From Escherichia coli (GTDB lineage Bacteria; Pseudomonadota; Gammaproteobacteria; Enterobacterales; Enterobacteriaceae): DNA of 64,000 nucleotides. Location of the stretch: assembly GCF_024223415.1 (NCBI RefSeq), contig NZ_CP100500.1, one strand, 5' to 3'. Each line of letters starts with the position of its first letter. The stretch's first letter is position 1. Below are positions 19,653 through 30,135 of the stretch, one piece after another. The notes beneath the pieces are model-generated. The model was not told the DNA's origin and ran no database searches. It saw nothing but the letters and a program-made list of their open reading frames with translations. A program made the translations under genes and the position numbers.

Positions 19653-20072
19653 ATGGACAAATATGAATTTAGACGACAACAACTCATCAAAATTCGTGAT
19701 GAGAAATGCGATGGTAAAGCGGTTAACGTGGCCAGAAAGATCGGTCGCGAGCCTTCTTATGTATCAAGAATGTTGTACCCAGAGGGGAAAAAAGGAAAAA
19801 AACGGATCGCTGATGATATGGTGGAGATTATAGAAGAGTCCTTTGGGTTACCCCGGGGATGGATGGATGGTATCGTTTCATCATCAACGAACACAGCCTC
19901 CAATTATGAAACAAGGGTTCTAACGCCACGACAACGTATTTTTTTAGATCTCTTAGACGAACTGCCTGAAAGTGAAGCGGATAACTTATTAAAAACTCTT
20001 GAAGAGAAAAAACAGTATTACAATATGATCTACGAAGAAATCCGTAAAAAGAAAGCACAAAACGCATCATAA
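19653..20072 (+). CDS. Prophage repressor (CI/RacR-like HTH)
   Basis: ATG at 19653 (MDKYEFRR); HTH AVNVARKIGREPSYVSRM; divergent to cro-like gene. Confidence 0.7.
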   Translation: MDKYEFRRQQLIKIRDEKCDGKAVNVARKIGREPSYVSRMLYPEGKKGKKRIADDMVEIIEESFGLPRGWMDGIVSSSTNTASNYETRVLTPRQRIFLDLLDELPESEADNLLKTLEEKKQYYNMIYEEIRKKKAQNAS

Positions 20073-20115
20073 CTCACCAAACAACCAGTCACCAGTTAAG
20101 ATACATCAAAAAAAT

Positions 20116-20152
20116 TACCCATGGGTATTTACTTCTTGGATACCCATGGGTA
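20116..20152. promoter_or_regulatory. Second operator pair: two perfect TACCCATGGGTA palindromes (20116-20127, 20141-20152) just 3-prime of repressor gene
   Basis: Exact 12-bp palindromes 25 bp apart, same consensus as OR-like pair. Confidence 0.45.
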
Positions 20153-20474
20153 TCCTTTCTTTCATACCAACCCACCCCGCCCCACAGAACGCAGGGCAAT
20201 ACTTCGAGTTACCAGGCAGTGGTCAGGGGTTAAGTAGCCAGCCCGAGGCGTATGAACATGACGGCAGGGTTTAACTTTAACTATGCAGCAGGTTTTTGTT
20301 CCGCTACCCCGGCGTTAAGGGGAAACAGAGGATTTCTCAGTGGGCGAAGTCAAACATCAGAATGGAAGGCATCCCGGGATCGGCAAAGAAGCAGCAATGG
20401 CGCTTTATATTGACATCAGCGCCATTGCCGGACAGGTAAGAATTATCAGAGCGGTAACTAAGCGGTATGTGCCT

Positions 20475-20675
20475 TTACTTCAGAAAGGCTCCGGTGATTA
20501 CACCGAAGATATTGTCAACGATTTCCTCATCGAATTGCGAGGACTCATCTTCAGTTACAAGGTGACCACAATTTTTGCAGATGGCTCCCGCGAAACTGTC
20601 AGAGCCCTGCGGCTTAAAGGATGTGTCGAAGACTTCGCCACCACATTCTGGGCAAGAAAACTTGATTGTATTCAT
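20475..20675 (-). CDS. Hypothetical zinc-ribbon protein (66 aa; CPEC...CKNC); strand assignment ambiguous
   Basis: CxxC-x23-CxxC pattern; competing 118-aa plus-strand ORF 20340-20696. Confidence 0.4.
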   Translation of the reverse strand: MNTIKFSCPECGGEVFDTSFKPQGSDSFAGAICKNCGHLVTEDESSQFDEEIVDNIFGVITGAFLK

Positions 20676-21484
20676 AACCAATTTCCTCTCGGGTAACAGA
20701 CCCCTCAGAGGATACCACCTCGCCTGACGTGGTTAAAAGCAGGCACACAACACGAAAGCGCACGGCGAGGTAGCTGGTTCATATATAGCCTGTCGTTAAA
20801 TTTTCGTCGACCGTGCGCTTCCGGTTGTGGCACTCCGCGAAATGGCGCGGCGGTAAGCATGGCGGGGTTCCCTTCCCCTTGAGGACACCGGGTTGTCAGG
20901 TTGACCATGCGCCTGAGTGACAACCCCGCTGCAACGCCCTCTGTTATCAATTTTCTGGTGACGTTTGGCGGTATCAGTTTTACTCCGTGACTGCTCTGCC
21001 GCCCTTTTTAAAGTGAATTTTGTGATGTGGTGAATGCGGCTCAGCGCACGCGGAACAGTTAAAACCAAAAACAGAGTTATGGGTGGATTCTCTGTATCCG
21101 GCGTTAATTGTTAACTGGTTAACGTCACCTGGAGGCACCTGGCACCGCATCAACAAAGTTCACTTCGGTGATGAAAGGTAAGAGAAAATGTTGAATGTAG
21201 CTATTGAAAACCAGTACGGGTGGAATTATAGTGCACCTGCACCTCATAAAACGGGTGCCGGGCGTGGAAACCCGAAAGTTACTCGAGCGCATAACCGCGC
21301 CGAAGCGGTTTTTTTATGCGTAATGCACAGCCACATTCAGATAATGGTGGGGCGTGCAGGGCAGCTGCAAGGCTGGCCGGGTTCTCGAGTGACCGGTATT
21401 TCCACCCCTGTACGTCTCGCCACCCTTATGGTCGTGGAAAGCCTCGGTGGTGAGTTAATTAACTTAACACTTGAGGATGCCATC

Positions 21485-22036
21485 ATGGCTACTACCCTTA
21501 CCCTTTCTCACCCTGACGTAACCATTGAAAATGGTCGCGCTGTCACTACGTCTATTGCGATCGCAGAATTCTTCGGCAAGCAGCATCACCATGTTGTTCA
21601 AAAAATAGAGGCCCTCGAATGTTCTGAACGCTTTTTAACCAGCAACTTTTCGCGGGTTAAATTCGAGCACCGTGGCAATACCTACAATGCCTACCAAATC
21701 ACCAAAAACGGCTTCGTTTTCCTGGTGATGGGCTTCACGGGCAAAAAGGCCGCTGCATTCAAGGAAGCCTACATTGCCGAGTTCGACCGCATGGAGGAAG
21801 AACTGCGCCGGAATAACACCACACCCGCTGACAAAATAATCCCGGGTGATGGCCGCACCCTGGTTATCCGCTTCGACGAACACGGCTACATCAAATTCAC
21901 CGAAACCGTTCCTGATGGCGCACTGGTCTGTACTCTGGATACTTTCCGTTTTTATCTGGAAAAGCAGGGATGGACTCTCATAAACCGGGGCGCAATTAAA
22001 AATATGACCGTCGAGCAGTTGCTGAGTATTAAATAG
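21485..22036 (+). CDS. Phage regulatory protein Rha family
   Basis: VTTSIAIAEFFGKQHHHVVQKIEAL...NAYQITKNGFVFLVMGFTGKKAAAFKEAYIAEFDRME Rha-domain signature; GAGGA 8 nt upstream of ATG 21485. Confidence 0.75.
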   Translation: MATTLTLSHPDVTIENGRAVTTSIAIAEFFGKQHHHVVQKIEALECSERFLTSNFSRVKFEHRGNTYNAYQITKNGFVFLVMGFTGKKAAAFKEAYIAEFDRMEEELRRNNTTPADKIIPGDGRTLVIRFDEHGYIKFTETVPDGALVCTLDTFRFYLEKQGWTLINRGAIKNMTVEQLLSIK

Positions 22037-22081
22037 TTTTCTGGAATTTCCTTCATATCACAAATTATTAAGGAGATTATT

Positions 22082-22303
22082 ATGATTGCTCATCACTTCG
22101 GAACCGATGAAATACCACGCCAGTGCGTCACTCCCGGCGATTACGTTATTTACGAAGGCCGGACATATGTTGCATCGGCAAACAATATCGAAAAGCAAAA
22201 ACTTTATATCCGTGATTTCACTACAAAAACATGCATTACTGACCGCATGATTAAAGTCTTCCTCGATCGTGATGGTTTACCTGTAAAGGCGGAGGCATGG
22301 TGA
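22082..22303 (+). CDS. Hypothetical protein (73 aa)
   Basis: ATG with strong AAGGAG RBS. Confidence 0.55.
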
Positions 22304-22422
22304 GCTGTAATAAATAACTGACCCAATACGACATTCAGCTTAATAAATACATAAGGGTCGATTCTTATATGCCAGCAATGGCAGGGATTCGCACAACCTT
22401 AAAACAGCAATGAGGTTTATCA

Positions 22423-24876
22423 ATGAGCACTGATAAAGAAACTTTTGCGCTATATTGCGAAGCTAAAAATGACAAAGTCAGAAAACGCCTTGGGATTAAA
22501 GGTGGTTTTTACTGGACTACAGCAAAAAAATTATCTGTTGCCATCTCCCGCTGCATTACCGCAATGGATGATAACGATTATGATGAAGACGACTTTAAAA
22601 AACCTGTTCGCGTCCATTTGCCCGTTGTTGATGACCTTCCACCGGAAGGCGTGTTTGATACCGAATTCTGTAACCGGTATGAAAAAGGCGGCGAAGATGG
22701 CATCACAATGATATTTATCGCGCCTCCGCCATCCGCGCAGGACAAACCAGCCAGCACTGACAACACCAATGTTAATGGCGAAGACATGACTGAGATTGAG
22801 GAGAATATGCTTCTGCCGGTTTCAGGTCAGATTCTGCCTGTTCGCTGGCTGGCGCAACACGGCGGCGAAAAACCAGTAACGCACGTTTCGCGGGATGAAC
22901 TGCGCTCATTACATAACGCACAGGAAGAAAAACTTCCCGCCGTTACCGCGCTGGCCATCTCAAATAAAGCAGCGCAACTCGAACCGCTGGAGATTCGGGA
23001 TTTGTACAAACTGGTGCGGGACACTGACAAAGTTTTTCCCGCCCCCGTAAATTCAGACCTGGGACTGATGACCTCCTTCATCGAAGCATACCTAGACGCT
23101 GACTACACTGATCGTGGTCTGCTTACAAAAGAGTGGATGAAAGGAAATCGTGTTTCTCGCATCAGTCGCACACCATCCGGCGCTAACGCTGGCGGCGGTA
23201 TTCTTACCGATCGCGGCGAAGGTTTTGTGCATGATAATGCGTCAATGGCATTCGATGTTGCTACAGGAAAACTGGCTCGTTCGATGGATGTGGATATTTA
23301 CAACATGCATCCTTCACATACCAGACGTGTTAACGAAATTATCGCAGAAAATGATCCCTGTTTCTCCGTCTTCCTTAAGGCTTTTCTGAACATGCCAGGC
23401 GGGATGGATTATTCCCGCGCCATCGTGGTTGCCTCCGTGAAAGAAGCACCGGTTGGTATAGAGGCTATGCCCCACCGCGTCACCGAATACCTGAATAAAG
23501 TGCTGACCGAAACCGATCATGCCAACCCTGATCCGGAAATCGTGGATATTGCCTGCGGTCGTTCCTCTGCCCCAATGCCGCAGCGTGTAACAGAAGAAGG
23601 AAAACAGGATGATGAAGAAAAACCGCAACCGTCTGGCGCAATGGCAGATGAACAGCCAACGACTGAAACAGTGGAACCGGATACAACTGAACATCATCCG
23701 GACACGCAGCCGCTGGATGCTCAGCCGCAGGTGAATTCTGTTGATGCGAAATATCAGAAACTGCGGGCAGAACTCCATGAATCCCGGAAAAACATTCCGC
23801 CCCAAAATCCTGTCGACGAAGACAAGTTGCTGGCAACCTCTGGCGGAGAATTTGCTGAAGGGATTAGCGACCCGAATGATCCGAAATGGGTGAAGGGGAT
23901 TGAAACCCGCGATTCTGTGAACCAGAATCAGCAAGAAACGGAACAGAACGACCAGAAAGCGGAACAAAACAGCCCAAATGTGCAACGAAAAGAGCCAAAA
24001 GCGAAACAATCCGAACCAGTAGCGCAACAGGAACCGGAAAAAGTCTGCACCGTCTGCGGTCAGAGCGGTGTCGACAACTGTCCTGATTGTGGCGTGGTGA
24101 TGGGCGACGCAACATACCAGGAAATGTTCGATGAAGAGAATCAGCCTGAAGTTCAGGAAAATGATCCAGAGGAAATGGAAGGCTCTGCGCATCAGAACAA
24201 GGAGAACTCTGGCGGCAATCAGCATCATGCCAGCGATAGTGAAACTGGCGAGACGGCAAATCCCTTAATTAAGATAACCAGTCATCACAAATATAAGTCC
24301 ACAAGCAAAACGTGGTATCACCTGATGATCGACCTTGAAACAATGGGAACCAACACCAATGCACCCATAGTAGTTATTGGTGCGGTTTTCTTCGACCCGG
24401 AAACAGGGGAAATCGGGCCGGTATTTTATATCGTTATCAGCCTGACTGACGCAATGAATACAGGGGCTGTTCCTGATGGTGGCACCATCGAATGGTGGCT
24501 GAAGCAGTCCAGCGAAGCCAGAGCTGCCATTTTAACTGACCAGGTAAAAATGAAAGATGCCCTTTTGCGTTTTCGGGAATTCGTCAATGAACACTCTGAT
24601 GAAAAATTCGTTCAGGTGTGGGGTAATGGCGCAACGTTCGATAACGCAATTTTGCGCACCTCATACGAACGTCTGGACATCCCCTGTCCGTGGCATTACA
24701 GCAACGATCGTGATGTACGCACAATCGTTGAGATGGGGAAAATCACAGACTTCAATGCCAGAAGCGTAATTCCATTCGAAGGCGTGCGCCATAATGCTCT
24801 GGATGACGCTCTTCACCAGGCAAAATACGTAACAGCCGCTATACAAAAACTGATCCCGAATCAGGCTGATTTTTAA
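22423..24876 (+). CDS. Exonuclease: RecE-like N-terminal region fused to DnaQ-like DEDDh 3-5 exonuclease C-terminal domain
   Basis: 817 aa; N-terminal ~590 aa resemble Rac RecE as recalled ([78 protein letters not shown]); C-terminal motifs [27 protein letters not shown]. Confidence 0.8.
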
Positions 24877-24940
24877 TGTTCAACCCCGGTCGTCGCCCAC
24901 CGGCTATAGTGGCGGCGACCATGATTAGCGAACGACGCTC

Positions 24941-25189
24941 ATGGCAAGACTTATTCTGCTCACTGAGTGGGCAAAAGAGGAATTCAGTGAACCGGTCCCT
25001 ACTCCGGGTACGTTAAGTAAATACGCTAAAGCCGGAATGATATTTCCTCTCCCCAAAAAAGTAGGAAGGCACTGGCGAGTGGATCCACGCGCTCGCTTTG
25101 TCGGAATGGTAAACAAGCCGGAGGTGATCGCCACAGATCACCCTGCTTTGAAGAGGATACTGGAAGATGGCGCGCCCGCGAAAATATAA
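24941..25189 (+). CDS. xis: Excisionase (lambda Xis-like)
   Basis: 82 aa directly upstream of and overlapping int; LTEWAKE...RHWRV resembles lambda Xis. Confidence 0.7.
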   Translation: MARLILLTEWAKEEFSEPVPTPGTLSKYAKAGMIFPLPKKVGRHWRVDPRARFVGMVNKPEVIATDHPALKRILEDGAPAKI

Positions 25190-26297
25190 AACCGATGTTC
25201 CGGGTTTATCTCCGTATTTTGACAAAAGAAATAACAAAGTTTACTGGCGTTACAGGCATCCCATCACAGGTAAAAATCATGGACTCGGCAGTATTGACCA
25301 GAAACTGGCGGAAACCATTGCAGCAGAAGCGAACAGCCGTCTTGCCAGACAACAAATGGAGCAAATTCTCAGTCTGCAGGAGAAAATTATTAGTGATACC
25401 GGCGGCGCATCAACCGTTTCCATTTTTCTGAATAATTACAGAAAAATTCAACAGGAAAGATATGAGAACGGAGAGATCAAACTCAGCACGCTGAAGCAAA
25501 AAGCGGCTCCTCTCAGGGTGTTTGATGAACGTTTTGGAGCCAGGCCGCTAGATGCCATAACCGTAAAAGATGTGGTATCGGTGCTGGAAGAATACAAGGC
25601 AAAGGGACATAACAGAATGGGACAAATTTTCAGGAAGGTATTGATCGATGTTTTCCGGGAGGCTCAACAAACGGGTGATGTTCCGCCAGGCTTTAACCCG
25701 GCTGAATCGGCAAAAAAACCGCAAGTGCGGATATCAAGACAGCGACTGACTTTTGATGAGTGGATGATGATTTATAACGCAGCGGAAAAGGATGGTTACT
25801 TTTTACAGCGCGGCATGCTGCTGGCACTGATGACGGGCCAGCGTCTTTCGGATATTTGCAAAATGCAGTTTTCGGATATCCGGGATGGTTACCTTCATGT
25901 CGAACAGCAAAAAACAGGAGCCCGGATAGCCATTCCTCTGGCTCTGCGTTGCGACAAATTAAATCTTACCCTGGGTGACGTGGTGTCATCCTGTCGTGAT
26001 TACATCCTTAGTCCGTGGTTATTGCACCATCATCACGCTAAGGGGATGGGTAAGCGCGGCGGGATGGTTAAACCAGCAACATTAACAGTCGCATTTAAAA
26101 AAGCCCGGGATTCTGTGGATTACAACTGGCGTGCTAATGGCACGCCACCCTCTTTCCATGAGCAAAGATCTTTATCAGAACGATTGTTCAGAGAACAGGG
26201 AATTGATACCAAAATTTTGCTGGGCCATTCGAATCAAAAAATGACCGATATTTACAACGACGCACGCGGTAAAGAGTGGAAAAAACTGGTTATTTGA
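25167..26297 (+). CDS. int: Tyrosine integrase (lambda Int family)
   Basis: 376 aa; C-terminus LLGHSNQKMTDIYNDARGKEWKKLVI parallels lambda Int LLGHKSDTMASQYRDDRGREWDKIEIK (catalytic Tyr). Confidence 0.9.
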   Translation: MARPRKYKTDVPGLSPYFDKRNNKVYWRYRHPITGKNHGLGSIDQKLAETIAAEANSRLARQQMEQILSLQEKIISDTGGASTVSIFLNNYRKIQQERYENGEIKLSTLKQKAAPLRVFDERFGARPLDAITVKDVVSVLEEYKAKGHNRMGQIFRKVLIDVFREAQQTGDVPPGFNPAESAKKPQVRISRQRLTFDEWMMIYNAAEKDGYFLQRGMLLALMTGQRLSDICKMQFSDIRDGYLHVEQQKTGARIAIPLALRCDKLNLTLGDVVSSCRDYILSPWLLHHHHAKGMGKRGGMVKPATLTVAFKKARDSVDYNWRANGTPPSFHEQRSLSERLFREQGIDTKILLGHSNQKMTDIYNDARGKEWKKLVI

Positions 26298-26302
26298 TAA
26301 CC

Positions 26303-26338
26303 AGTTTTGCAGAAGAGTTTTGCAGAGGTTTTGCAGAG
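26303..26338. repeat. Three direct repeats of GTTTTGCAGA (12-13 bp period) between int stop and ompW stop; candidate Int arm-type sites
   Basis: AGTTTTGCAGAAGAGTTTTGCAGAGGTTTTGCAGAG read directly. Confidence 0.35.
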
Positions 26339-26342
26339 AAAA

Positions 26343-26981
26343 TTAGAAGCGGTATCCGGCAGAGAACATAAACACCCACGGATCCAGTCGTACCGCGTCT
26401 TTCACGGGGGTTCCATTAAATTTATAGCTGGCGGTGGTGTCGATATCCATGTACCACACTGACATATTAACCAACCAGTCACGGTTAATCAGATAATCAA
26501 CCCCCACCTGCCCGGCAGCTCCCCAGGAATCTTTCAGACTGAGATCGGAAAGCCCCGCCTCTTTGCCATGATCGTTAAATCCATTATCAAAGAAGGTGGT
26601 GTAGTTAATACCTGCCCCAACATAAGGACGGAATTTGCTGCTGGCATCACCAAAATACCACTGCGCCATCAGTGTTGGCGGCAGATGATGAACGGTTGCA
26701 ATATCGCCGGTCGCCCGGGTGCCGATTTTATGGCGGAACGGCGTCGCTGCCAGTAATTCCACACCAATGTTGTCGGTCGCCATATAAGTAAACGTCAGGC
26801 CCAGTTGAGTGTTATTGGTCACGCTGAATCCACCCAGACTTCCTAACGTACCACCAGCACCTTCTGTAGGACGTACGGTTGCAGAACCTGCACGCATAAA
26901 AAATTCTCCTGCTTCATGCGCAAAGGCACTGCCAGAGAGAAGTGTTGTTACTGCCAAAGCCGCCACTGTTAACTTTTTCAT
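26343..26981 (-). CDS. ompW: Outer membrane protein W
   Basis: 212 aa with signal peptide MKKLTVAALAVTTLLSGSAFA; matches OmpW. Confidence 0.95.
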   Translation of the reverse strand: MKKLTVAALAVTTLLSGSAFAHEAGEFFMRAGSATVRPTEGAGGTLGSLGGFSVTNNTQLGLTFTYMATDNIGVELLAATPFRHKIGTRATGDIATVHHLPPTLMAQWYFGDASSKFRPYVGAGINYTTFFDNGFNDHGKEAGLSDLSLKDSWGAAGQVGVDYLINRDWLVNMSVWYMDIDTTASYKFNGTPVKDAVRLDPWVFMFSAGYRF

Positions 26982-27337
26982 ATCCGCTCCGTCGTTATGG
27001 TTATAAAAACGTGACGAATATACCTACATTGGAGTAACAAATGATCCTACATAGATCACATTACATATGATAATTCACCCTTTATTGATCTGGATTAATT
27101 TAGAAGTTGCATTGAGAATCCTGGTTAACGTGATTTAAATCAATTTTTAAATATTTTCGCTACGCAAATATTAACTTGTTCGCCACTTGCCGCGGTTTGC
27201 CCACGCCTGAAGGCCAGCAATTACCTCCGCTTTACAAAGATATGCTTTTCCATACAAGACCTGATGCTGCCACCCGAGGCTTAACCAGGGTACAATTGCC
27301 CGCTAATTAACACCTGCATAAAACTCAAGGAGAGTGC

Positions 27338-28081
27338 ATGTCTATCACGGCGCAGTCCGTATACCGTGACACCGGAAATTTCTTCCGTAATCAATTTATG
27401 ACCATTCTGTTGGTATCGTTGCTATGTGCGTTTATCACAGTGGTGTTAGGGCATGTTTTCTCACCCAGTGATGTACAGCTTGCGCAGCTCAATGACGGCG
27501 TGCCCGTTAGCGGCAGTAGTGGGTTGTTCGACCTGGTTCAGAATATGTCACCGGAACAGCAACAAATTTTGCTGCAGGCTTCAGCGGCGTCCACTTTTTC
27601 AGGATTAATCGGTAACGCCATTCTCGCCGGAGGCGTAATATTAATTATCCAGCTGGTGTCTGCGGGTCAGAGAGTCAGTGCGCTGCGAGCTATTGGTGCC
27701 AGTGCGCCGATATTGCCAAAGTTATTTATTCTGATTTTTCTGACTACCCTTTTAGTACAGATTGGCATCATGCTAGTGGTCGTTCCGGGAATTATCATGG
27801 CTATTTTACTGGCCCTGGCACCGGTGATGTTGGTACAGGACAAAATGGGCATTTTTGCCTCGATGCGTAGCAGTATGCGGCTGACTTGGGCGAATATGCG
27901 TCTGGTGGCACCCGCAGTACTGAGCTGGTTGCTGGCAAAAACACTGTTGCTGCTTTTTGCCTCTTCTTTTGCCGCATTAACCCCGGAAATTGGTGCCGTA
28001 CTGGCGAACACCTTGAGCAACCTGATTTCAGCCGTATTGCTCATCTATCTGTTCCGTCTGTATATGTTGATTCGCCAATAA
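27338..28081 (+). CDS. yciC: UPF0259 inner membrane protein YciC
   Basis: 247 aa polytopic membrane protein; conserved position next to yciB. Confidence 0.9.
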
Positions 28082-28110
28082 CCTTAAGCATTTGATTACG
28101 GAATCGTAAA

Positions 28111-28650
28111 ATGAAGCAGTTTCTTGATTTTTTACCGCTGGTTGTCTTTTTCGCGTTTTACAAGATTTATGACATCTATGCGGCTACTGCGGCGCTGATC
28201 GTCGCCACGGCGATTGTGCTTATATATAGCTGGGTTCGCTTTCGTAAGGTTGAGAAGATGGCCCTGATCACTTTTGTTCTGGTGGTCGTCTTCGGTGGCT
28301 TGACGCTGTTCTTCCACAATGATGAGTTTATAAAATGGAAGGTTACAGTCATTTATGCTCTGTTTGCGGGAGCCCTGTTAGTCAGCCAATGGGTGATGAA
28401 AAAGCCGCTAATTCAGCGGATGCTGGGTAAAGAACTCACGCTGCCGCAACCGGTATGGTCGAAGCTGAATCTGGCCTGGGCTGTTTTCTTTATCCTTTGC
28501 GGTCTGGCAAACATCTACATCGCATTCTGGCTGCCGCAAAATATTTGGGTCAACTTTAAAGTCTTTGGCCTGACCGCCCTTACCTTAATCTTCACATTGT
28601 TAAGCGGTATCTATATCTACCGCCACATGCCGCAGGAAGATAAATCCTAA
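28111..28650 (+). CDS. yciB: Inner membrane septation-associated protein YciB (IspZ)
   Basis: 179 aa; conserved synteny. Confidence 0.9.
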
Positions 28651-28754
28651 CCAGACTGCCAGTCCTTCGGGGCTGGCGCTGTATCTCCTCTGTTCTCCTC
28701 AGGAAAATCATAGTAGCATCGCGCCTGTGATTTTCCTTTTAAGTCGGTTTTACC

Positions 28755-29153
28755 ATGTCTACAACACATAACGTCCCTCAGGGCGATCTTGTTTTACGTA
28801 CTTTAGCCATGCCCGCCGATACCAATGCCAATGGTGACATCTTTGGTGGTTGGTTAATGTCACAAATGGATATTGGCGGCGCTATTCTGGCGAAAGAAAT
28901 TGCCCACGGTCGCGTAGTGACTGTGCGGGTTGAAGGAATGACTTTCTTACGGCCGGTTGCGGTCGGCGATGTGGTGTGCTGCTATGCACGCTGTGTCCAG
29001 AAAGGGACGACATCGGTCAGCATTAATATTGAAGTGTGGGTGAAAAAAGTAGCGTCTGAACCAATCGGGCAACGCTATAAAGCGACAGAAGCATTATTTA
29101 AGTATGTCGCGGTTGATCCTGAAGGAAAACCTCGCGCCTTACCTGTTGAGTAA
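28755..29153 (+). CDS. yciA: Acyl-CoA thioesterase YciA
   Basis: 132 aa hotdog-fold thioesterase. Confidence 0.9.
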   Translation: MSTTHNVPQGDLVLRTLAMPADTNANGDIFGGWLMSQMDIGGAILAKEIAHGRVVTVRVEGMTFLRPVAVGDVVCCYARCVQKGTTSVSINIEVWVKKVASEPIGQRYKATEALFKYVAVDPEGKPRALPVE

Positions 29154-29192
29154 TAATCAAAAGCCTCCGGTCGGAGGCTTTTGACTTTCTGC

Positions 29193-29912
29193 TTACTGAA
29201 TTTCGGTGGTGCCGTTAATTTTAAACAGGATATTCACCACAATCCCACTGCCTGGCTTACCCGGCTCATAACGCCATCTGCGCATCGCATTTTTCACCTC
29301 ACGCTCAAACATGTTCGCAGGTTTAGCTGAGAGGATTTGCACGTTATCCACGCGACCATCCGGCGTGACATCAAATTTAACTTTAACCTGCCCTTCAATG
29401 CGCAATGCCTGTGCCCGTGCCGGATACTGCGGCTGATTACGGCTTAATGCGCGTGGTCCTGAAGCCACACTGGTAACCGGCTTGCTGGTCGCAGCCGTTG
29501 CCGTACTTGATGTCGGGCGTGCCGGTGCCGTATTTTCAAACGGTGATGCCGGACGCGACTCTACGGGTTTGACATCGCGTTTTGGCTGTTCCTGTACCTT
29601 TTTCACCGGCTTCGGTTTTGGCTTAGGTTTCGGCTTCGGCTTTTCAATGACCACCGGAGCTTCTTTTGGCGGTTCGGGGATCGGCTCAGGTTCCGGTTCT
29701 GGCTTTACCACCGGCTCCGGTGGCGGCTGAACGGCTTGTGGCGGTTCGAGATCAGCAGGCGCAACCATCGTGACAGAAATTGGCTGCGCAGGCGCAGGTA
29801 GTTCAATAACCTGATGTACCGAGGTATAGAGCAGACCCGCCACAACAGCACCATGAATGCAGACCGAAAGTAACGTCGGCCAGGGGAAGCGGCGAGGTAA
29901 ATCAAGGGTCAT
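29193..29912 (-). CDS. tonB: TonB energy transducer
   Basis: 239 aa from ATG 29912 ([11 protein letters not shown]); (EP)n/(KP)n proline-rich spacer; C-terminal domain. Confidence 0.95.
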
Positions 29913-30135
29913 TGAAGTCATAATCATTTCAGTAGAAAAACCAGGTCTCGATTTTAAATGCAAATAGCAATCATATTCAATAAGGCAAGACGATCAGGAT
30001 CAGTGAAAATGTCATTTTTGGCGTAATTGACCTTACTTTACGCATGGTCTTAACAAAGACATCATCTTTCCGTTGCAGATCTTCGCCCTTTCAAATAACG
30101 TACTTTACAACTTTCCCGAACAAGGAGTTGTGCCC

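What the first reader, a model, noticed from the sequence alone, without database searches (positions are those of the whole stretch)
26298..26420. Integration junction at the ompW 3-prime end with triple GTTTTGCAGA repeats
The integrase stop (26297) and the ompW stop (26343) are 45 bp apart, and the gap is filled by three direct GTTTTGCAGA repeats at 12-13 bp spacing, a layout typical of arm-type Int sites. The att core is therefore likely within or just inside the ompW 3-prime end, meaning the last codons of ompW may be phage-supplied. The other att copy is outside the window.
Basis: inference. Interest (0 to 1): 0.35.

Follow-up and report, generated by a model that had tools for sequence, protein, structure and literature searches.

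The report
Phage integrase arm sites beside ompW
This is the integrase-side junction of a lambda-like prophage inserted in the E. coli ompW gene; the three short repeats are most likely docking sites for the phage integrase, so the finding is correct but ordinary.

Summary
Three exact GTTTTGCAGA copies (26304, 26317, 26328; spacing 13 and 11 nt, not 12-13) fill the 45-nt gap between the int stop (26297) and the ompW stop (26343).

An empty-site alignment shows the repeats are not native ompW flank. The last 31 codons and stop of ompW (26343-26439) are a diverged phage-supplied copy. The only block shared by attP, attB and both junctions is TCGATATCCATGTACCACACTG (26440-26461), about 100 nt inside ompW. 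The other junction lies about 54 kb away in a near-identical genome, outside the window.

The integrase is a lambda Int homologue with an arm-binding N-domain. A fourth motif copy sits 119 nt beyond the core in the other arm. Homology between phages ends just after that copy.

The same triple follows related integrases that target icd, a ushA-like gene and one unidentified gene. Phage 21 and e14 have the same 3+1 layout with other motifs.

I conclude that the repeats are arm-type Int sites of a phage-21-like attP (about 0.85). Binding itself is untested.

Integration of this prophage family (PPompW) into ompW is already published; the arm motif appears undescribed. Side lead: the phage-supplied ompW ends vary in the last surface loop.

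The parts
24941..25189 (+). Excisionase gene (xis), overlapping the start of int
   Evidence: 82-aa ORF. Pfam Exc PF07825, E 3.3e-07. Annotated as excisionase in NZ_CP033635.1 and LC567822.1.
25167..26297 (+). Lambda-family tyrosine integrase (376 aa) with an N-terminal arm-DNA-binding domain
   Evidence: Pfam Arm-DNA-bind_1 PF09003 (E 4.3e-22, residues 2-71) and Phage_integrase PF00589. Matches lambda Int structures 5j0n/1z1b at E ~4e-55 over residues 14-375. 96-99% identical per domain to the PPompW_132418 IntE.
26280..26309 (.). Hairpin (stem 26286-26293 / 26297-26304, int stop codon in the loop) flanked by A6 and T4. Candidate two-way terminator for ompW and int.
   Evidence: The ompW-sense RNA folds into a 12-bp stem followed by U-rich sequence: -14.7 kcal/mol, z = -5.05, 0 of 200 shuffles as good. 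A T-A pair here is C-G in other PPompW junctions, a compensatory change. The simple terminator scan did not call it. Function is inferred.
26304..26313 (+). Repeat 1 (outermost), proposed arm-type Int site, by position the counterpart of lambda P'3
   Evidence: Exact GTTTTGCAGA. Invariant in all related junctions.
26317..26326 (+). Repeat 2, proposed arm-type Int site
   Evidence: Exact GTTTTGCAGA. Invariant in all related junctions.
26328..26337 (+). Repeat 3 (nearest the core), proposed arm-type Int site
   Evidence: Exact GTTTTGCAGA. Only its first base varies (G/A) in relatives.
26343..26439 (-). Phage-supplied 3' end of ompW: third base of codon 181, codons 182-212 and the stop
   Evidence: Diverged from native ompW (29 nt differences in 96 nt) but in frame. 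There are 8 aa changes, all within aa 185-196. There are 0 aa changes in aa 197-212 despite 7 nt changes. The same segment is contiguous with phage DNA in the intact attP of phage 204576 and IMG/VR contigs.
26440..26461 (.). Core identity block TCGATATCCATGTACCACACTG, shared by attP, attB and both junctions. Strand exchange must occur here.
   Evidence: Three-way alignment of the window junction, empty BL21 site and far junction. Coordinates. The phage-specific G at 26439 bounds it on the left; the far junction diverges after ...CACACTG on the right. A secondary-site junction in E. albertii rlmC suggests exchange near the right end, 26458-26461 (inference).
26462..26981 (-). Host-derived part of ompW (codons 1-173 and the first nucleotide of codon 174)
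   Evidence: 9 nt differences in 519 nt and no aa change against BL21 ompW. Pfam OmpW, E 3e-79.

Best explanation
Window 26298-26461 is the integrase-proximal arm plus core of the attachment site of a lambda-like prophage of the published PPompW family, inserted in ompW.

Shown by sequence comparison: the phage attP carries its own diverged copy of the last 31 codons of ompW. Recombination within the 22-bp block at 26440-26461 therefore leaves ompW full-length. After insertion, the end of the gene, its stop codon and the downstream hairpin are phage DNA.

Inferred: the three GTTTTGCAGA repeats between the ompW stop and the int stop are arm-type binding sites for the N-terminal domain of the integrase. 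They would correspond to lambda P'1-P'3 and to the three dodecamers of phage 21. Together with a fourth copy 119 nt beyond the core in the other arm, they mark the outer limits of an attP of about 290 bp. Int molecules bound at these sites would bridge to the core through bent DNA to assemble the recombination complex for integration and, with Xis, for excision.
For: (a) The repeats are exact and unique in the window.

(b) They are absent from the empty ompW-yciE site. They are contiguous with core and phage DNA in intact attP sequences of phage 204576 and several IMG/VR contigs.

(c) Int has the lambda Arm-DNA-binding domain (PF09003, E 4e-22) and aligns over its full length to lambda Int structures.

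(d) A fourth copy, GTTTTGCAG(A/G), lies 119 nt past the core in the other arm. It is invariant in 5 distinct diverged arms, and homology between those arms collapses directly after it.

(e) In 6 distinct int-side arms, 0 of 27 motif positions vary, against 5 of 19 other gap positions and 56 of 131 non-motif positions over the whole arm.

(f) The same triple, with the same spacing, follows the stop codon of integrases only 49-69% identical that target other genes: icd (L011, L023), a ushA-like gene (L091, L095, L108) and an unidentified gene (L090). It was present in 12 of the 13 loci whose int ORF is intact and that have downstream sequence.

(g) The 3+1 layout recurs with other motifs. Phage 21 has GTTTTGGGGAA three times after the int stop, annotated in OL657228.1 as attP subsites P1P2P3, plus one copy 118 nt beyond the icd homology. 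e14 has GTTATCAAAA three times plus one copy 118 nt from the core boundary. In lambda, P'1-P'3 abut the int stop.

(h) Integration of PPompW phages into ompW with a 121-bp duplication, and attP detected by PCR after induction, are published (PMC8112680).
Against: No binding or deletion data exist for this motif.

The repeats lie 102-136 nt from the core, further than lambda P' sites at about 46-90 nt. No good IHF consensus was found in that arm; only one 1-mismatch site was found, in the other arm.

Overall N-domain identity does not cluster by motif. The window Int is 49-67% identical to the GCAG-motif icd integrases and 49-53% identical to phage 21 and e14 Int.

One related locus (L093) lacks the repeats after int.

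The other arm was taken from a near-identical genome and from phage records, not from the window's own genome.

The conservation statistics rest on a few related sequences.
Confidence: 0.85

Rival explanations
1. The repeats bind the excisionase or another accessory protein, as the tandem X1-X1.5-X2 Xis sites of lambda do, rather than the integrase.
For: Three direct repeats at roughly one helical turn also describes lambda Xis sites (own knowledge). An Exc-family xis gene lies just upstream.
Against: The motif occurs in both arms, at the outer edges of the conserved attP. Lambda Xis sites lie in one arm only, the arm distal to int (own knowledge). By position the int-proximal triple corresponds to lambda P'1-P'3 and to the phage 21 sites annotated as P1P2P3.
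Confidence: 0.07
2. The repeats act at the RNA level, as part of the new ompW 3' UTR or of the int mRNA 3' end (stability control or a small-RNA or Hfq site).
For: They lie between the ompW stop and a strong hairpin (z = -5.05) that probably ends the ompW transcript, so they would be transcribed.
Against: In the icd-targeting relative L011 a GC-rich hairpin directly downstream of the icd stop lies between the icd end and the repeats, so the repeats are probably not in that gene's transcript. A fourth copy sits in the other arm, far from either gene. Rfam finds nothing at this position.
Confidence: 0.04
3. The repeats are a functionless slippage duplication, or native host sequence downstream of ompW.
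For: Short tandem arrays can arise by replication slippage. No function has been shown directly.
Against: They are absent from the empty site. They are invariant across diverged phages while neighbouring bases vary. They are retained next to integrases about 50% identical at other loci.
Confidence: 0.03

Closest known systems
PPompW prophages of STEC/EPEC (Nakamura et al. 2021, PLoS Pathog, PMC8112680; GenBank LC567818-LC567841)
   Same: Same integrase (96-99% aa per domain) and same insertion into ompW. The 121-bp imperfect duplication corresponds to window 26341-26461. The three repeats are identical.
   Different: The window prophage carries a different version of the supplied ompW end (TTASYKFNGTPVKDA against TTAKYKSGVTTVKDS). 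It lacks the 21-bp attB-in-prophage sequence described in that paper. The paper does not mention arm-type sites (0 occurrences).
Phage 21 attP in icd (OL657228.1; Wang et al. 1997, J Bacteriol 179:5705, cited from memory; existence of the reference confirmed, paper not held)
   Same: Homologous Int (49% overall). Three tandem ~12-mers start within about 10 nt of the int stop, with spacing 13/12 against 13/11 here. A diverged copy of the target gene's 3' end lies between the repeats and the core. One further copy in the same orientation lies 118 nt beyond the core boundary.
   Different: The motif is GTTTTGGGGAA, not GTTTTGCAGA. The target is icd, not ompW. The supplied gene end is 165 nt against 97 nt, and a terminator lies between the repeats and the gene end rather than beyond the repeats.
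Cryptic prophage e14 of E. coli K-12 (icd)
   Same: IntE is 50% identical. Three copies lie in the arm carrying the supplied icd end, and one copy lies 118 nt from the core boundary in the other arm.
   Different: The motif is GTTATCAAAA (GTTTTGATAAC when read in the int direction). int is separated from the repeats by inserted genes (ymfD, ymfE, lit).
Phage lambda attP: P'1-P'3 and P1/P2 arm-type sites bound by the Int N-domain
   Same: Int is homologous with the same three-domain layout. Three tandem arm sites lie between core and int, the outermost overlapping the int stop. Further sites lie in the other arm.
   Different: The lambda motif is CAGTCACTAT. The lambda P' sites lie about 46-90 nt from the core, with a clear IHF site between. 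Lambda inserts between genes and supplies no gene end. The lambda P arm has two sites, one of them inverted.

Membership tests
Lambda-type attP with arm-type integrase sites | Integrase carries an N-terminal arm-DNA-binding domain in addition to core-binding and catalytic domains | tested here: met
   PF09003 E 4.3e-22 (residues 2-71), PF22022 and PF00589. Full-length alignment to lambda Int structures 5j0n/1z1b.
Lambda-type attP with arm-type integrase sites | A short motif unrelated to the core sequence is repeated in both arms of attP | tested here: met
   Three copies lie 102-136 nt on the int side and one copy lies 119 nt on the other side of the core.
Lambda-type attP with arm-type integrase sites | The motif is phage DNA and is absent from the unoccupied bacterial site | tested here: met
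   No copy in the BL21 ompW-yciE region. Present in phage records with intact attP.
Lambda-type attP with arm-type integrase sites | The motif follows the integrase lineage rather than the target gene | tested here: met
   The same triple follows related integrases that target icd, a ushA-like gene and another gene. Phage 21 and e14 Int, which target icd, use other motifs.
Lambda-type attP with arm-type integrase sites | Int N-domain physically binds the motif | not testable with these tools
   Needs gel shift or footprinting.
Lambda-type attP with arm-type integrase sites | Sites for DNA-bending proteins (IHF) lie between arm sites and core | tested here: inconclusive
   Only one 1-mismatch IHF consensus match, at +110 to +122 in the far arm. 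None in the int-side arm.
Phage 21 / e14-type attP that replaces the 3' end of the target gene | attP holds a diverged in-frame copy of the target gene's 3' end, so the gene stays intact after insertion | tested here: met
   26343-26439 encodes aa 182-212 plus stop. ompW is a full 212-aa ORF and the native end is left as a remnant at the far junction.
Phage 21 / e14-type attP that replaces the 3' end of the target gene | 3+1 arrangement of repeats, with the single copy about 118 nt from the core boundary | tested here: met
   The distance is 119 nt here, 118 nt in phage 21 and 118 nt in e14.
PPompW prophage family (PMC8112680) | Integrase at least 90% identical to the O145:H28 PPompW integrase, and ompW split by the insertion | tested here: met
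   96-99% aa identity per domain to the PPompW_132418 IntE. The paper's criterion is nucleotide identity to EC112648_1574, which was not tested directly. The window holds the int-side junction; the ompW remnant at the far junction was seen only in the near-identical genome NZ_CP033635.1.

The most novel reading that the evidence does not exclude
Integration of these phages may act as a cassette swap of the last surface loop of OmpW (the beta7-beta8 connection, aa 185-196). At least four phage-borne versions exist, one with a 5-aa insertion, and all keep the final beta-strand unchanged. A degenerate-pattern scan of 100,044 species genomes found no native gene encoding the window's version. The shared loop ending VKDxVRLDPW was found only once, and there it was phage-borne. 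If the altered loop changes recognition of OmpW by colicin S4, OmpW-dependent phages or the conjugation protein TraN-alpha, lysogeny would remodel a surface receptor simply through the choice of attachment site.
Probability: 0.2. Interest if true: 0.55.

Novelty: new member of a known kind. Interest (0 to 1): 0.25.

Why it matters
It matters little for basic biology. The ompW insertion site and this prophage family are published, and arm-type sites are textbook lambda biology.

The practical gains are three. First, the attachment site of a very common E. coli prophage family is now delimited: an int-ompW junction was found in 1,714 of 5,426 complete genomes. The site is about 290 bp, with a 22-bp exchange block and a 9-nt arm motif, GTTTTGCAG. 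This helps call prophage boundaries exactly and design attP/attB assays.

Second, there are now three related arm motifs in one integrase family: GTTTTG followed by CAGAR, GGGAA or ATAAC. This gives a natural series for studying how the N-domain reads DNA.

Third, lysogens carry an OmpW with a phage-chosen surface loop, which may be worth testing.

Tried and rejected
Rfam at E <= 1 over 20000-30000 found nothing at the junction, only DicF, isrK and C4 further upstream.

The simple terminator scan did not call the hairpin at the int stop. Folding did.

The IHF consensus scan gave one weak site, so the bending architecture is unresolved.

I expected integrases sharing the GCAG motif to cluster by N-domain identity. 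They do not. Only a PGL (this group) against PNL (phage 21, e14, lambda) difference was seen, and that is too weak to use.

e14 does not carry GTTTTGCAGA, so the intE gene name in the PPompW records does not imply shared arm specificity.

A full-text search for the motif found only unrelated primers. Searches for arm-type sites of phage 21 found no held paper. Wang et al. 1997 could not be read, so what I say about it is from memory.

A search for a second copy of the ompW end or the core in the window was negative.

L008, L012-L018 and L015 from the viral pattern scan are unrelated chance or coding repeats.

Scans of species genomes for a native source of the phage-borne OmpW loop found none.

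Full report
**What is there**

The window is E. coli chromosome. ompW lies at 26343-26981 on the minus strand, followed by yciC, yciB, yciA and tonB. To its left are a 376-aa integrase gene (25167-26297, +), an excisionase gene (24941-25189), an exonuclease gene and the rest of a lambda-like prophage that runs to the start of the window.

The int stop and the ompW stop are 45 nt apart. This gap holds three exact GTTTTGCAGA copies, at 26304, 26317 and 26328. No other exact copy exists in the 64 kb window.

**Where the junction is**

I aligned the window with the unoccupied ompW-yciE region of BL21. I then added the far junction of a 99.8%-identical lysogen, NZ_CP033635.1, which lies about 54 kb away beside yciE. 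Three zones appear.

- From the ompW start to 26462 the window is host sequence: 9 differences in 519 nt and no amino-acid change.
- TCGATATCCATGTACCACACTG (26440-26461) is the only block common to the int-side junction, the far junction and the empty site.
- From 26439 to the stop at 26343 the window carries a diverged copy of the ompW end. The native end survives as a remnant at the far junction.

Left of the ompW stop there is no similarity to the native flank, so the repeats are phage DNA. The stretch 26341-26461 is the 121-bp imperfect duplication annotated in the PPompW phage records and reported by Nakamura et al. 2021. That study also detected attP by PCR after induction. No second copy of the core or of the ompW end is in the window.

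**Intact attP**

Phage record CP025907.1 (phage 204576) and several IMG/VR contigs hold the two arms joined. The order is int stop, three repeats, ompW-like end, core, then an AT-rich arm.

In that far arm a fourth copy, GTTTTGCAG(A/G), lies 119 nt past the core in the same orientation. It closes a well-conserved block, and immediately after it the arms of different phages lose all similarity. The four copies therefore bracket a conserved attP of about 290 bp.

**Why the repeats are probably integrase arm sites**

The integrase has the lambda Arm-DNA-binding domain (PF09003, E 4e-22) and aligns end to end with lambda Int crystal structures.

Across six distinct int-side arms, none of the 27 TTTTGCAGA positions varies. 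By contrast, 5 of the 19 other gap positions and many positions of the ompW-like segment do vary.

A pattern scan of viral contigs, and a search for relatives of the integrase, found the same triple at the same spacing directly after the stop codon of more distant integrases. These are only 49-69% identical and sit next to the 3' ends of other genes: icd (L011, L023), a ushA-like gene (L091, L095, L108) and an unidentified gene (L090). The triple was present in 12 of the 13 loci whose int ORF is intact and that have downstream sequence. The motif therefore travels with the integrase lineage, not with ompW.

The layout recurs with different motifs in three known systems.

- **Phage 21:** GTTTTGGGGAA occurs three times starting 11 nt after the int stop. 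The deposited record annotates these as attP subsites P1P2P3. A terminator follows, then a 165-nt icd end, the core, and one more copy 118 nt further on.
- **e14:** GTTATCAAAA occurs three times after the supplied icd end, with one copy 118 nt from the core boundary in the other arm.
- **Lambda:** P'1-P'3 lie between the core and int, and the outermost overlaps the int stop.

Read in the int direction, the three relatives share a GTTTTG head followed by CAGAR, GGGAA or ATAAC.

From memory, Wang et al. 1997 delimited the phage 21 attP at 366-418 bp, so as to include the outermost repeated dodecamers. They attributed its length to the need to supply the icd 3' end. The reference exists, but I could not read it.

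**Weak points**

- Binding is not shown.
- The int-side repeats are 102-136 nt from the core, further than in lambda, and I found no convincing IHF site in that arm.
- Whole-domain identity of the N-domains does not sort by motif.
- One relative (L093) lacks the repeats.
- The far arm comes from other genomes.
- The sequences used for conservation are related and few.

**Rivals**

- Xis sites are unlikely because the motif is in both arms, at the outer edges of attP.
- An RNA role in the ompW 3' UTR is unlikely. In the icd-targeting relative L011 a GC-rich hairpin separates the gene end from the repeats, and Rfam finds nothing at this position.
- Native or functionless sequence is excluded by the empty site and by the conservation.

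**Additional features**

The int stop codon sits in the loop of a hairpin (26286-26304) flanked by A6 and T4. In ompW-sense RNA this is a 12-bp stem followed by U-rich sequence (z = -5.05). One stem pair is T-A here and C-G in other PPompW phages. It probably terminates ompW, and possibly int, replacing the native ompW terminator lost to the far junction. This is inference.

In the E. albertii type strain the same int, repeats, ompW-like end and core are joined to rlmC, giving a chimeric ORF. Intact rlmC shares ACTGGCAG with attP. This looks like a secondary-site insertion and suggests that exchange occurs at the right end of the 22-bp block.

**Side lead**

The supplied ompW end keeps the last strand (VRLDPWVFMFSAGYRF) unchanged through 7 synonymous substitutions. 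It changes 8 of 12 residues at aa 185-196, the beta7-beta8 connection. This connection is an extracellular loop in eight-stranded barrels with periplasmic termini (established topology; OmpW structures 2f1t and 2mhl).

Other phages of the family carry other versions, one with five extra residues. Degenerate scans of 100,044 species genomes found no native gene with the window's version. The shared ending VKDxVRLDPW was found only in the phage-borne copy in E. albertii.

OmpW loops matter for TraN-alpha-mediated conjugation, shown for loop 3. Whether this loop swap has any effect is untested.

**Verdict**

The system is a member of the published PPompW prophage family, with a phage-21-like attP. 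The arm motif itself seems undescribed, but it is a routine instance of a known mechanism, so interest is low to moderate.

Noticed in passing
window 26343-26439 (ompW aa 182-212); L005, L009, L030-L032: The phage-supplied ompW ends differ among phages only in the beta7-beta8 surface loop. The versions are TTASYKFNGTPVKDA here, TTAKYKSGVTTVKDS, TKASYKLNGAPVKDS, and TTAKYKSDGRKLAKGSYSDN with five extra residues; the native sequence is TTANYKLGGAQQHDS. The last strand is invariant. No native gene with these loops was found in 100,044 species genomes.
   Followed up: partly
L034 5600-6035 (Escherichia albertii NBRC 107761, NZ_BBMY01000048.1): The same int, triple repeat, ompW-like end and core are joined to rlmC instead of ompW. 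This creates a chimeric 121-aa ORF (RlmC N-terminal part fused to the OmpW C-terminal part). Intact E. coli rlmC shares ACTGGCAG with attP, which suggests a secondary attachment site.
   Followed up: partly
window 26280-26309: A hairpin holds the int stop codon in its loop, with A6 upstream and T4 downstream. One stem pair shows a compensatory T-A to C-G change in related phages. It is a candidate two-way terminator that replaces the native ompW terminator.
   Followed up: partly
window 20953-21427: A cluster of prophage small RNAs lies upstream: DicF (20953-21004, 76.7 bits), isrK (21239-21315) and C4 antisense RNA (21340-21427). All score above Rfam gathering thresholds.
   Followed up: no
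L020, L026, L031, L032 (core region): Some junctions carry a variant core...CATGTACCAGACCG or ...CCAGACTG, instead of ...CCACACTG. In L026 the sequence beyond the core is neither ompW nor the usual phage arm. These may reflect other host alleles or further secondary sites.
   Followed up: no
L033 (E. coli KCJ3K291, NZ_CP054407.1): An ISKpn26 (IS5-like) element is inserted in the ompW 3' end close to the phage core region. The 3' end of ompW is thus a target for more than one kind of mobile element.
   Followed up: no
whole window: The 21-bp attB-in-prophage sequence (GTCATGCAGTTAAAGTGGCGG), which lets Stx phages insert into O145:H28 PPompW prophages, is absent from the part of this prophage inside the window, allowing up to 2 mismatches.
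   Followed up: yes
L091, L095, L108 (viral contigs), about 70 nt downstream of the triple repeat: Integrases 54-59% identical, with the same GTTTTGCAG triple, sit next to the 3' end of a ushA-like 5'-nucleotidase gene (ending ...PKGEIVYK). This may be a further gene-3'-end attachment site for the same integrase family, presumably in other Enterobacterales.
   Followed up: partly
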